This document shows positions 19,129-28,309 of a stretch of 64,000 nt of DNA, in pieces; position 1 is the first letter of the stretch, and every line of letters starts with the position of its first letter. Made by a program: the position numbers and the translations under genes. The notes beneath the pieces were generated by a model that was not told where the DNA came from, did not search any database, and saw nothing but the letters and a program-made list of their open reading frames with translations. Source of the stretch: Promethearchaeota archaeon (GTDB taxonomy: Archaea > Asgardarchaeota > Lokiarchaeia > Sigyniarchaeales > SOKP01); NCBI GenBank assembly GCA_048939995.1, contig JBHLOY010000006.1, positions 96,001 through 160,000 of the forward strand. Reading direction: 5' to 3'.

Positions 19129-19809
19129 ATGGAGAATCGACTTTTAAACCAATTTAATAATGTAATTTCTTCTCAATGGCTATCCAAAAATATTCAAATA
19201 CCGTATGAACCATTAAAATCAAAAGAATTATTCGAATTAGCATATCATTGTTGCAATTCAATAACAATGAGAAATATTTTTATTAAATTAGCTCCCAGTG
19301 AGGATAAAGGAGGATTTCAAGCAATTTTTTATTCTAGTAGTAAAAAATTCATAAATATCGTAGCATTGGATAATGAAATAAAATTAACAAAATTCTTTCC
19401 CGAGGGTTCTACTGGAGATAAGATTATAACAGAAATTCAGCCTCTTTTAAATAAAAGAAAAGACCAATATATAAAAAAGGATAAAGATATTCAAACTCAA
19501 ATACTTAAAATGATCCTAGTGGAACGCAAATTAGATGAATGTGCAAATTTAGTAATGTTAAAAGAGATAAATAGAAAAGTTTATTTCTCTATTGGGGATG
19601 CTAGAGAGAGTGCTGCTGTAATACCAATATTTATGGAAGCTGATGGAGCAAGTCTAGTACAACTAGCGCTAAACAAATGGATGACTATAGTCCAAAATCT
19701 GGACCAAGAGAAATTTTTTCCTGATAATCTTGTTGCAGGATTACTTAAAAATCTTATGCAGATAAAAAAATGGATATTAAATTTAATCTCAACAAATTTA
19801 GATAAATAG
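19129..19809 (+). CDS. Hypothetical protein
   Basis: 226-aa ORF with host-like codon usage; no motif recognised. Confidence 0.7.
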   Translation: MENRLLNQFNNVISSQWLSKNIQIPYEPLKSKELFELAYHCCNSITMRNIFIKLAPSEDKGGFQAIFYSSSKKFINIVALDNEIKLTKFFPEGSTGDKIITEIQPLLNKRKDQYIKKDKDIQTQILKMILVERKLDECANLVMLKEINRKVYFSIGDARESAAVIPIFMEADGASLVQLALNKWMTIVQNLDQEKFFPDNLVAGLLKNLMQIKKWILNLISTNLDK

Positions 19810-19832
19810 TGTTATTTTTCAATTTAAAAAAA

Positions 19833-20011
19833 TGGGCCATCGGGGATTTGAACCCCGGATTTCCCTTACTCATTGATGGAATCACAATGAGACTCAGGTT
19901 TTTACTAATAACGGACAAATTATTTTGTTGTATGTCCGTTGGTCATTTATAAGACCTGCGCTTTTTGACCAAGCTTTAAAGAGCTTGTTAACCAGTCTGA
20001 GCTAATGGCCC
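19833..20011 (-). tRNA. tRNA-Ile (anticodon UAU) with three introns (19964-19988, 19900-19946, 19861-19892)
   Basis: The spliced product GGGCCATTAGCTCAGACTGGTTAAAGCGCAGGTCTTATAAACCTGAGATCCGGGGTTCAAATCCCCGATGGCCCA (75 nt) folds as a cloverleaf. Each intron is a hairpin flanked by 3-nt bulges. Confidence 0.88.
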
Positions 20012-20190
20012 AAGACAATGATAATTCTATCTAAAGTATTTCTCCATATTTAAAAAAATATTTTTCTTACAAATTCAAAAGTTTCAAAAACATAAAAATT
20101 TTTTTATTGTTGCACTCTGTTATATTTATAATTAAAGCTTTAAAATGAATTTATTTAGAATTTAATTATATATATAAGAGTGAGAAGATT

Positions 20191-20592
20191 ATGGCTGAAA
20201 TGCTTACAGATTTATTAAATTCGATTTATAAAAGAATAGCCCAATTAGGTCAAGCCATTCAAGCTCTAAATACATCCTTAGATGGACTAAATAAAAATAT
20301 CGAAGAAAAAATTACCAATTTAAATGAAAAGCTAAAATCATTTGAAGAAGAAATAGATATCACTCAAACAAAACACATTGAAGTTTTAAGAGAAATTGGT
20401 GAAAGCACAAAATCAGAATTAATAAGCATTAAAGAGGGATTGGGTTTAGATGCTTTAAACACTTTAATAAAAAAGCTTGACGAATTTCAAAAACTATCTG
20501 GGGAGGTTTTAAATCAAGACACAGTGAATTTATTACTTTCTGAGGCTATAAATTCCGTGAAAAATTTAAAACAATCCTCTACAAAATTATAA
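20191..20592 (+). CDS. Coiled-coil protein
   Basis: 133-aa ORF with continuous heptad pattern. Confidence 0.7.
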   Translation: MAEMLTDLLNSIYKRIAQLGQAIQALNTSLDGLNKNIEEKITNLNEKLKSFEEEIDITQTKHIEVLREIGESTKSELISIKEGLGLDALNTLIKKLDEFQKLSGEVLNQDTVNLLLSEAINSVKNLKQSSTKL

Positions 20593-28207: not shown

Positions 28208-28309
28208 GCAGACATAGCCTAGCCTGGTACGGCGCCAGCTTGGAGAGAATTTCTTACCTAATAAGCTGGTGTGTGAAAGCACTCGAGGGTTCAAATCCCT
28301 CTGTCTGCG
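28208..28309 (+). tRNA. tRNA-Ser (anticodon GGA) with an 18-nt intron (28246-28263) at position 37/38
   Basis: Acceptor GCAGACA/TGTCTGC, discriminator G, anticodon stem CCAGC/GCTGG, long variable arm, T arm GAGGG-TTCAAAT-CCCTC; BHB helix TTGG/CTAA. Confidence 0.92.

What the first reader, a model, noticed from the sequence alone, without database searches (positions are those of the whole stretch)
19833..20011. tRNA-Ile with the rare UAU anticodon, hidden by three introns and containing a 7-nt exon
Seen in sequence: four exons (23, 17, 7 and 28 nt) are separated by hairpin introns of 25, 47 and 32 nt at about positions 21/22, 38/39 and 45/46. The anticodon loop reads CU-UAU-AA. Established: most archaea read AUA with agmatidine-modified CAU (TiaS), and UAU is the eukaryotic solution, found in only a few prokaryotes. 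Inference: AUA decoding here may be eukaryote-like and TiaS-independent. The 7-nt exon is needed for two neighbouring splice motifs, which suggests ordered splicing. The third motif is a relaxed BHB. Standard tRNA scanners may miss this gene.
Basis: partly seen in the sequence, partly recalled or inferred. Interest (0 to 1): 0.72.

Follow-up and report, generated by a model that had tools for sequence, protein, structure and literature searches.

The report
Three-intron Asgard isoleucine tRNA, UAU anticodon
This is a real, conserved isoleucine tRNA gene cut into four pieces by three introns; it reads the very common AUA codon directly with a UAU anticodon in a Loki-type Asgard archaeon whose whole class lacks TiaS, the enzyme most archaea use for this job. 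That strategy is already known from a few other archaea.

Summary
On the minus strand, 20011-19833, exons of 23, 17, 7 and 28 nt are split by introns of 25, 47 and 32 nt. Spliced, they give a 75-nt cloverleaf with anticodon UAU.

- **Comparative proof:** orthologs in two genera keep the exons almost unchanged while the introns diverge. Some orthologs lack intron 1 or intron 3 exactly at the predicted junctions. Others carry extra D-loop or T-loop introns, making five intron positions in this one gene.
- **No TiaS:** the genome (98% complete) has no TiaS. Neither do 0 of 121 genomes of its class, against 156 of 332 in the phylum.
- **Need for a reader:** AUA is the ninth commonest codon (34 per 1000).
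- **Gene copy:** single copy in this genome, with strong matches in about 95 of 106 family genomes.
- **Splice motifs:** all three are relaxed (helix-bulge-helix without an outer helix). The motifs of introns 2 and 3 compete for C40-G43 of the 7-nt exon.

Not shown here: spliced RNA, U34 modification, charging with isoleucine, splicing order, and a complete count of CAU tRNAs.

UAU decoding without TiaS is known from Nanoarchaeum and Korarchaeum, and multi-intron Asgard tRNAs are published. This scan has already found the same arrangement in other Asgard genomes. It is a new member of a known kind.

The parts
19833..20011 (-). Whole pre-tRNA-Ile(UAU) gene, 179 nt, from G1 to discriminator A73. 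CCA is not encoded.
   Evidence: Sequence; top solution of the splice-motif and cloverleaf search; 138-bit single hit of model R1 in the genome.
19989..20011 (-). Exon 1 (23 nt): acceptor 5' strand, U8 A9, D-stem 5' strand GCTC, D-loop up to A21.
   Evidence: 19 of 23 columns are invariant in 15 orthologs.
19964..19988 (-). Intron 1 (25 nt) at 21/22. The central helix is UGGU with GUCA, followed by a 6-bp inner helix. There is no outer helix (relaxed HBh').
   Evidence: type A, 4/4 central, 6 inner, 0 outer. The central helix pairs in all 14 orthologs that carry the intron. The intron is absent in G023 at the predicted junction.
19947..19963 (-). Exon 2 (17 nt): D-stem 3' strand AAGC, G26, anticodon-stem 5' strand, and loop C32-A38 with the anticodon.
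   Evidence: 17 of 17 columns are invariant in 15 orthologs. The same 17-mer occurs in 73 Asgard gene copies fetched from MAGs.
19949..19951 (-). Anticodon U34 A35 U36 (TAT on the minus strand).
   Evidence: U33-U36 pair with intron GUAA or GUAG in 15 of 15 orthologs. U34 always faces A.
19900..19946 (-). Intron 2 (47 nt), at 38/39 by motif geometry. The parts are a 4-bp helix (anticodon with intron), a 2-3 bp h' helix, an internal loop and an 8-bp hairpin.
   Evidence: 4/4 central. The hairpin has 6 pairs with compensatory change. The intron is present in every ortholog seen.
19929..19934 (-). Conserved CAUACA at the 5' edge of the apical loop of intron 2. Its function is unknown.
   Evidence: ACA is invariant in 15 of 15 orthologs. 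CANACA occurs in 66 of 69 unique introns, and ACA sits at intron nt 16-18 in 68 of 69. CATACA also occurs in the one-intron gene of sister-family genome G032.
19893..19899 (-). Exon 3 (7 nt): A39-G43, the anticodon-stem 3' strand, plus A44 G45.
   Evidence: 6 of 7 columns are invariant.
19861..19892 (-). Intron 3 (32 nt) at 45/46. Its central helix is C40 C41 U42 with intron GGG (3 of 4 pairs). A 7-bp inner hairpin is offset by 2 nt. This is the most relaxed motif.
   Evidence: type A, 3/4, inner 7. The intron is present only in G000, G010, G023 and G103 among the orthologs read. Where absent, it is missing exactly at the junction.
19833..19860 (-). Exon 4 (28 nt): A46-C48, T arm (CGGGG UUCAAAU CCCCG), acceptor 3' strand, A73.
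   Evidence: 25 of 28 columns are invariant.
19826..19832 (-). Run of seven T directly after the discriminator, a likely transcription stop.
   Evidence: Sequence. That archaeal terminators are oligo-T is my own knowledge.
20047..20054 (-). TTTAAATA, a TATA-box-like element 36-43 nt upstream of G1. It would give a short 5' leader.
   Evidence: Sequence. The promoter role is inferred and was not tested.

Best explanation
This is the single-copy, functional gene for tRNA-Ile(UAU) of a Loki-class Asgard (Promethearchaeia) archaeon.

The inferred pathway is as follows. The 179-nt primary transcript probably starts a few bases upstream, after a TATA-like box, and ends at the T-run. It carries three tRNA-type introns at 21/22, 38/39 and 45/46. 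Each splice site lies 2 nt 3' of a 4-bp helix formed between the end of the upstream exon and the end of the intron, next to an intron hairpin. This is the relaxed helix-bulge-helix form of the archaeal bulge-helix-bulge motif. The archaeal splicing endonuclease would cut there, and this genome encodes two EndA paralogs. A ligase would then join the four exons, including the 7-nt one, and CCA would be added.

The helix that defines intron 3 uses C40-G43. The same bases form the anticodon stem on which the intron-2 motif rests. So the two introns must be cut from different conformers, one after the other, in an order I cannot tell.

The mature 75-nt tRNA reads AUA by U34-A pairing. Because the lineage has no TiaS, it is most likely the only AUA reader.

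Shown here: the gene, its exons and introns, their conservation, and the lack of TiaS. Inferred: cleavage by EndA, sequential splicing, charging by IleRS, and whatever modification of U34 prevents reading of AUG.
For: - **Structure:** exact exon and intron coordinates and a cloverleaf.
- **Selection:** 67 of 75 exon columns are invariant against 14 of 47 in intron 2. Sister-genus orthologs have near-identical exons but different intron sequences.
- **Introns are real:** orthologs lack intron 1 or intron 3 precisely at the predicted junctions. Other orthologs have a 30-nt D-loop intron with a perfect UCAG/CUGA helix, or a T-loop intron of about 30 nt.
- **Pairing:** 92.9% of cells pair against 24-45% with slid partners. 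There are 7 pairs with compensatory change. Both central helices pair in 100% of orthologs.
- **Copy number and spread:** one 138-bit hit in this genome, with other tRNAs at 39 bits or less. About 95 of 106 family genomes have a match at E of 1e-15 or better. Sister-family genome G032 has a one-intron tRNA-Ile(UAU).
- **No C34-modifying route:** TiaS_FLD reaches no cut-off here, and the best weak hit is an IF-2B protein. It is found in 0 of 121 genomes of the class and 0 of 117 of the family, against 156 of 332 in the phylum. A full-length Asgard TiaS finds nothing, and TilS domains find nothing.
- **Demand:** AUA is 34.3 per 1000 codons and 33% of Ile codons. tRNA-Ile(GAU), which cannot read AUA, is present at C5:44903-45022.
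- **Enzyme:** two EndA paralogs.
Against: - No RNA data.
- All three motifs lack an outer helix. Intron 3 has only 3 of 4 central pairs and a 2-nt offset, so cleavage depends on a tolerant endonuclease that has not been characterised for this lineage.
- My count of CAU tRNAs is incomplete. I found only one (C28:237433-237538), and the genus's initiator tRNA is not in this assembly. A hidden tRNA-Ile2-like gene therefore cannot be excluded by sequence search.
- Cloverleaf stems are invariant across orthologs, so they give no covariation support of their own.
- D-stem pair 13-22 is a C-A mismatch here.
- An unmodified U34 would be expected also to read AUG.
Confidence: 0.82

Rival explanations
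1. The locus is a decaying tRNA pseudogene that has accumulated insertions. AUA is read by something else.
For: - C13-A22 mismatch in the D stem.
- Three interruptions with relaxed motifs.
- Missed by ARAGORN and by the Rfam tRNA model.
Against: - Exons are nearly invariant across two genera while introns diverge.
- Insert boundaries are exact and obey the same helix-plus-2-nt rule.
- The mismatch is shared by 11 of 15 orthologs, and the tRNA-Ile(GAU) of the same genome has a U13-U22 mismatch.
- The gene is single-copy and present in about 95 of 106 family genomes.
- No TiaS or TilS exists to support another route.
Confidence: 0.03
2. A second, undetected AUA decoder exists: a tRNA-Ile2(CAU) hidden by introns and modified by an enzyme unrelated to TiaS or TilS. 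The UAU tRNA would then be redundant or minor.
For: - My CAU census is incomplete, because many tRNAs here carry D-loop or T-loop introns.
- The one CAU tRNA found has an odd T loop, CUCAUAU.
- The initiator tRNA is missing from the assembly.
Against: - No TiaS in 121 genomes of the class and no TilS domains.
- Screens for CAU anticodon arms with an intact T arm or D arm found only one tRNA-like locus.
- The UAU gene is under strong purifying selection across the family.
- The known TiaS-less archaea Nanoarchaeum and Korarchaeum use UAU alone (PMC8450103).
Confidence: 0.08
3. The tRNA is real but is charged with methionine, so AUA would mean Met as in many mitochondria, or it reads both AUA and AUG.
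For: - A UAU anticodon with unmodified or xm5-type U34 can pair with G (general knowledge; PMC8879553 argues this point).
- Its D arm resembles that of the CAU tRNA of the same genome.
Against: - If AUA coded Met, Met would make up about 5.4% of residues and Ile only about 7% in a 30% G+C genome. That is weak evidence.
- The body shares G1-G3/C70-C72, U8 A9, G26, an AGNUC variable loop and A73 with tRNA-Ile(GAU).
- No reassignment of AUA is known in archaea (my knowledge).
- I did not test codon-to-residue correspondence in conserved proteins.
Confidence: 0.03

Closest known systems
tRNA-Ile3(UAU) of Nanoarchaeum equitans and Candidatus Korarchaeum cryptofilum (PMC8450103; PMC6000648)
   Same: - Archaeal tRNA-Ile with a genomically encoded UAU anticodon.
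- The genome lacks TiaS and tRNA-Ile2(CAU).
- The Korarchaeum gene also carries an intron (PMC6000648).
   Different: - Here the host is an Asgard lineage and the trait is class-wide (0 of 121 genomes with TiaS). The 2018 survey found 2 of 167 genomes with the trait.
- The gene has three introns, and five positions are used across the family.
- The anticodon intron sits at 38/39 by motif geometry.
[quoted passage not shown]
   Same: - Multiple tRNA-type introns per gene at non-canonical positions, many in the D arm.
- Missed by standard annotation.
- Repeated gain and loss between close relatives.
   Different: - Those studies centre on Atabeyarchaeia, Freyarchaeia and Jordiarchaeia.
- Neither text mentions UAU, Ile or TiaS.
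- This genome belongs to the Loki class.
Eukaryotic cytoplasmic tRNA-Ile(UAU), anticodon pseudouridine-A-pseudouridine
   Same: - Encoded UAU anticodon reading AUA.
- Always an intron next to the anticodon whose sequence pairs with the anticodon.
   Different: - The eukaryotic intron is at 37/38 and is needed by Pus1 for pseudouridine 34 and 36 (my knowledge).
- Here no modification is known.
- Only one TruA-family synthase gene is present.
- Two further introns exist.
Multi-intron tRNAs of Thermoproteales with relaxed BHB motifs (Marck and Grosjean 2003; Sugahara 2008, as cited in PMC11291895)
   Same: - Up to three introns per gene.
- hBH or HBh' relaxed motifs.
- Genomes with two EndA paralogs.
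   Different: - A different phylum.
- Those organisms have TiaS and use tRNA-Ile2(CAU) (my knowledge; not tested here).

Membership tests
Archaeal elongator tRNA (class I cloverleaf) | 7-bp acceptor stem; D arm with G18 G19; 5-bp anticodon stem with a 7-nt loop (U33, purine 37); 5-nt variable loop; T arm G53-UUCRANN-C61; discriminator base | tested here: met
   The spliced 75-mer folds as a cloverleaf and ARAGORN calls it a tRNA. The only flaw is C13-A22, which is shared by 11 of 15 orthologs.
tRNA-Ile3(UAU) decoding system | Anticodon UAU encoded in the gene | tested here: met
   TAT at 19951-19949. Exon 2 is invariant in 15 orthologs and in 73 Asgard gene copies fetched from MAGs.
tRNA-Ile3(UAU) decoding system | No TiaS (or TilS) in the genome | tested here: met
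   The controls detect TiaS in four archaea and in 156 of 332 genomes of the phylum.
tRNA-Ile3(UAU) decoding system | No tRNA-Ile2(CAU) gene | tested here: inconclusive
   Only one CAU tRNA was found, at C28:237433-237538. The screens miss genes with interrupted D and T arms, and the initiator tRNA is absent from the assembly.
tRNA-Ile3(UAU) decoding system | Charged with isoleucine and reads AUA but not AUG | not testable with these tools
   This needs aminoacylation and ribosome-binding assays, and analysis of U34.
Archaeal tRNA-type intron, strict hBHBh' motif | 4-bp central helix flanked by two 3-nt bulges, with both outer and inner helices, and cuts after the second bulge base | tested here: not met
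   The outer helix is 0, 0 and 1 bp for introns 1, 2 and 3. For intron 2 the 3' 'bulge' is a 1x2 internal loop. For intron 3 the inner helix is offset by 2 nt.
Archaeal tRNA-type intron, relaxed HBh' motif | Central helix plus one bulge plus an inner helix, with splice sites 2 nt 3' of the central helix on each strand | tested here: met
   Central helix 4/4, 4/4 and 3/4 pairs; inner helix 6, 3 and 7 bp. The central helices of introns 1 and 2 pair in every ortholog. Junctions are confirmed by intron-less orthologs.
H/ACA pseudouridylation guide (proposed in earlier notes of this scan for the anticodon intron) | Hairpin with an internal pseudouridylation pocket, a K-turn or K-loop, and an ACA box 3' of the lower stem | tested here: not met
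   The stem is a continuous 8-bp helix. ACA lies in the apical loop, 5' side. U33-U36 are paired in the central helix rather than lying in a pocket. The relaxed Rfam search shows no H/ACA match.

The most novel reading that the evidence does not exclude
The always-present anticodon intron may be more than a passenger. It has a covarying 8-bp hairpin and a nearly invariant NACA at the 5' edge of its loop (68 of 69 unique introns, and also in a sister family with an unrelated stem sequence). It also pairs with U33-U36. Together these could form a platform that recruits a modification enzyme to U34 or U36 before splicing, as the intron of eukaryotic pre-tRNA-Ile(UAU) does for Pus1. That would place an intron-dependent solution to the AUA/AUG problem in the archaeal relatives of eukaryotes.
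Probability: 0.15. Interest if true: 0.8.

Novelty: new member of a known kind. Interest (0 to 1): 0.5.

Why it matters
Reading AUA as isoleucine without misreading AUG is a classic decoding problem. Bacteria solve it with lysidine, most archaea with agmatidine and eukaryotes with inosine or pseudouridine.

Reviews I could read treat the UAU anticodon as a eukaryotic rescue (PMC8879553). A 2018 survey found it in only 2 of 167 archaeal genomes (PMC6000648). I found no paper linking agmatidine or TiaS loss to Lokiarchaeia.

This locus is one more case showing that a whole Asgard class, and roughly half of the phylum by TiaS absence, relies on a UAU tRNA that always carries an intron beside the anticodon. 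That makes the origin of the eukaryotic scheme testable in cultured Loki-type strains.

In practice, such genes are invisible to common annotators, so Asgard tRNA sets and codon-capacity estimates are incomplete.

Tried and rejected
- **ARAGORN false calls:** its intron mode reported a second 'tRNA-Ile(tat)' at C11:460752-460855 and a 'tRNA-Ile(aat)' at C11:326332-326433. Read by hand, they are tRNA-Arg(UCG) with a D-loop intron and tRNA-Thr(UGU) with an intron at 30/31.
- **Splice-motif solver:** my solver is not specific on its own, giving 14,478 solutions for this locus. It picked inconsistent solutions for 6 of 16 orthologs. I therefore rely on the alignment, not on it.
- **Genome-wide CAU, UAU and GAU screens** were noisy. 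They yielded only tRNA-Ile(GAU), this gene and one CAU tRNA.
- **Initiator tRNA:** a short-word BLAST with G032's initiator tRNA and BLAST and 9-mer searches with the genus's initiators did not find one in this assembly.
- **Weak TiaS_FLD hit:** the hit at C13:69425 is an IF-2B family protein.
- **Whole-precursor fold:** the MFE fold pairs GCUCAG of exon 1 with CUGAG of exon 3. I treat this as a folding artefact of no known meaning.
- **H/ACA self-guide reading:** rejected on architecture (see the membership test).
- **Model R1 scores:** scores below about 60 bits are not diagnostic, because a tRNA-Ala of G030 reaches 55.5 bits.

Full report
**What is there**

The finding lies in a 381-nt gap between two plus-strand ORFs (19129-19809 and 20191-20592).
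- Exon 1 is 23 nt (20011-19989).
- Intron 1 is 25 nt.
- Exon 2 is 17 nt (19963-19947).
- Intron 2 is 47 nt.
- Exon 3 is 7 nt (19899-19893).
- Intron 3 is 32 nt.
- Exon 4 is 28 nt (19860-19833).

The joined exons give a 75-nt molecule with these features:
- a 7-bp acceptor stem and U8;
- a D arm with G18 G19;
- a 5-bp anticodon stem with loop C-U-UAU-A-A;
- a 5-nt variable loop;
- a T arm CGGGG-UUCAAAU-CCCCG and discriminator A.

ARAGORN calls the joined sequence tRNA-Ile(tat). The cloverleaf costs only 0.9 kcal/mol more than the MFE. CCA is not encoded. Seven T follow the discriminator, and a TTTAAATA box lies 36-43 nt upstream. On the unspliced DNA, ARAGORN finds nothing with or without intron mode, and the Rfam tRNA model reaches only 13.8 bits.

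**Is it more than chance?**

Motif matching alone is weak here. My own search combined a lenient bulge-helix-bulge rule with a loose cloverleaf test. It returned 14,478 ways to splice these 179 nt.

The strong evidence is comparative. A DNA search of relatives found the locus in 18 of 24 genomes of the same genus. Aligning 15 of them shows three things.
- Exons are nearly frozen: 67 of 75 columns are invariant, including all 17 of exon 2. Intron 2 keeps only 14 of 47.
- One genome (G023) lacks intron 1, with the junction exactly GGUUA|AAGCG. Twelve of the 15 aligned orthologs lack intron 3, with the junction exactly CCUGAG|A.
- Five genomes carry an additional 30-nt intron in the D loop. It has a perfect UCAG/CUGA central helix and leaves a 6-nt exon.

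In the sister genus the exons are again almost identical. Introns 1 and 2 are always present. Intron 3 reappears in one genome (G103) with a similar 3' end. Three genomes carry yet another intron in the T loop. So this one gene uses five intron positions across the family, which fits the repeated gain and loss reported for Asgard tRNA genes (bioRxiv 10.64898/2026.10.13.758758).

Counting pairs on the alignment gives these results.
- 92.9% of cells pair, against 24-45% when partners are slid by 1-3 columns.
- Seven pairs have changes on both sides, six of them in the intron-2 hairpin.
- The central helices of introns 1 and 2 pair in every sequence.
- The cloverleaf stems never vary, so they neither add nor subtract covariation evidence.
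- The C13-A22 mismatch occurs in 11 of 15 orthologs, and the other four have U13-A22. It is a lineage trait, not decay.

**Anatomy of the splice motifs**

All three introns follow one rule. The last six to three bases of the upstream exon pair with bases -6 to -3 of the intron, and both cuts fall 2 nt 3' of that 4-bp helix. An intron hairpin follows the 5' bulge.
- **Intron 1:** UGGU of the D loop pairs with GUCA, followed by a 6-bp inner helix.
- **Intron 2:** U33-U36, which includes the anticodon, pairs with GUAA. Then come 2-3 bp, an internal loop and an 8-bp hairpin. This geometry puts the intron at 38/39. In this genome the A-rich junction would give the same product if both cuts slid to 37/38.
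- **Intron 3:** C40 C41 U42 pair with GGG (3 of 4 pairs), and the 7-bp hairpin is offset by 2 nt.

None has an outer helix, so all are relaxed HBh' forms, not only the third.

The intron-3 helix uses the 3' strand of the anticodon stem, which the intron-2 motif also needs. The two motifs therefore cannot coexist. That supports sequential cutting from alternative conformers, but it does not give the order.

The genome has two EndA paralogs. Two EndA paralogs are found in Crenarchaeota and Nanoarchaeota, whose endonuclease tolerates relaxed motifs; that association is my own knowledge and an inference here.

**Decoding context**

The genome is 3.75 Mb, 30.5% G+C and 98% complete. It belongs to a Loki-type Asgard lineage. 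MAGs that share the exon-2 17-mer are labelled Promethearchaeota or Promethearchaeia. The sister family contains a 4.4-Mb single-contig genome.

The case that this tRNA is the AUA reader rests on five points.
- AUA is the ninth commonest codon, at 34.3 per 1000 and 33% of Ile codons. It is commoner than AUG.
- tRNA-Ile(GAU) exists at C5:44903-45022, with an intron of about 43 nt at 9/10. It cannot read AUA.
- TiaS_FLD reaches no cut-off in this genome, and the best weak hit is an IF-2B protein. It is found in 0 of 121 genomes of the class. Across the phylum it is found in 156 of 332 genomes, at E-values of about 1e-14 to 1e-46, but in 0 of 117 of this family and 0 of 11 of the sister family.
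- A full-length Asgard TiaS finds nothing here. The TilS-specific domains find nothing either.
- A covariance model built from the 15 orthologs hits this genome once at 138 bits, with other tRNAs at 39 bits or less. It hits about 95 of 106 family genomes at E of 1e-15 or better. The sister-family genome G032 has a one-intron tRNA-Ile(UAU).

**Limits**
- No RNA evidence could be obtained.
- My tRNA census is incomplete. Only about 40 tRNAs were resolved, and many have T-loop introns of about 30 nt.
- Only one CAU tRNA was found, at C28:237433-237538. It also has an intron at 38/39, whose AUGA pairs perfectly with U33-C34-A35-U36.
- The genus's initiator tRNA is not in this assembly.
- Modification of U34, charging and splicing order remain inference.

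**Comparison with what is known**

tRNA-Ile3(UAU) replacing tRNA-Ile2(CAU) and TiaS is documented for Nanoarchaeum equitans and Korarchaeum cryptofilum (PMC8450103; PMC6000648). Multi-intron Asgard tRNA genes are documented in PMC11291895 and the 2026 preprint, neither of which mentions UAU or TiaS. I found no paper connecting agmatidine or TiaS with Lokiarchaeia. One review treats UAU as a eukaryotic innovation.

Earlier notes of this scan report the same arrangement in several other Asgard genomes. My TiaS counts and this locus agree with them.

Two of those notes proposed that the anticodon intron is a self-guiding H/ACA-like element. I confirm the conservation they saw. ACA sits at intron nt 16-18 in 68 of 69 unique introns, and CATACA is present in G032 despite an unrelated stem. 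The architecture does not fit an H/ACA guide, however. ACA is in the apical loop, there is no pocket and there is no Rfam match. The motif's role is therefore open.

**Verdict**

This is a real, selected, single-copy tRNA-Ile(UAU) gene with three relaxed tRNA-type introns. It is most likely the sole AUA reader in a TiaS-less Asgard class. It is a new member of a known kind. Interest is moderate because the lineage link to eukaryote-style AUA decoding appears unpublished, although this scan has already seen it repeatedly.

Noticed in passing
window 19929-19934 (minus strand); L096-L210: CA-N-ACA sits at the 5' edge of the apical loop of the anticodon intron. It is nearly invariant while the rest of the loop varies and the stem covaries: 66 of 69 unique introns have it, and ACA alone is present in 68 of 69. 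It is also present in the one-intron gene of sister-family genome G032.
   Followed up: partly
window 28208-28309 (+): Second tRNA gene of the window, tRNA-Ser(GGA), with an 18-nt intron. It is the only tRNA that Rfam finds in the window (46.8 bits).
   Followed up: partly
G000:C28:237433-237538 (-): The only CAU-anticodon tRNA I could find. It has a 32-nt intron at 38/39 whose AUGA pairs perfectly with U33-U36, and an unusual T loop, CUCAUAU, in place of UUCRANN. I could not tell whether it is the elongator tRNA-Met.
   Followed up: partly
G000, whole genome; L055-L061: The genus's initiator tRNA is intronless in G002 (L060) and has T-arm introns in the other relatives read. It is not found in this 98%-complete assembly by BLAST or by 9-mer search.
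   Followed up: partly
G000: C7:5002-5125, C11:459337-459471, C11:472557-472694, C19:7060-7164, C19:8350-8481, C19:68112-68248, C19:132915-133049, C37:172401-172504, C38:78838-78941: At least nine tRNA genes carry an intron of about 30 nt inside the T loop, after UUCAA or UUCGA. This hides them from ordinary scans. ARAGORN's anticodon calls for intron-bearing genes here are often wrong.
   Followed up: partly
L019 (G004:C210), about 869-1222 on the reverse strand: In this relative only the 3' part of the gene is present, from the middle of intron 2 onward. It is joined to unrelated coding-like sequence. This could be a misassembly or a broken or split gene.
   Followed up: no
G014:C217:1930-2109 and G014:C65:6467-6617: One relative holds two copies of the gene with different intron sets (180 nt and 151 nt). 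The genome is listed with 9% contamination, so these may be two strains rather than a duplication.
   Followed up: no
window about 20070-20120: A block 60-110 nt upstream of the tRNA (ACAATAAAAAAATTTTTAT and flanks) is conserved in several genus relatives, although it is intergenic. It may be a promoter shared with the divergent ORF at 20191.
   Followed up: no
G000:C5:44903-45022 (-): tRNA-Ile(GAU) carries an intron of about 43 nt at 9/10 and has a U13-U22 mismatch. ARAGORN miscalls it as tRNA-Glu.
   Followed up: partly
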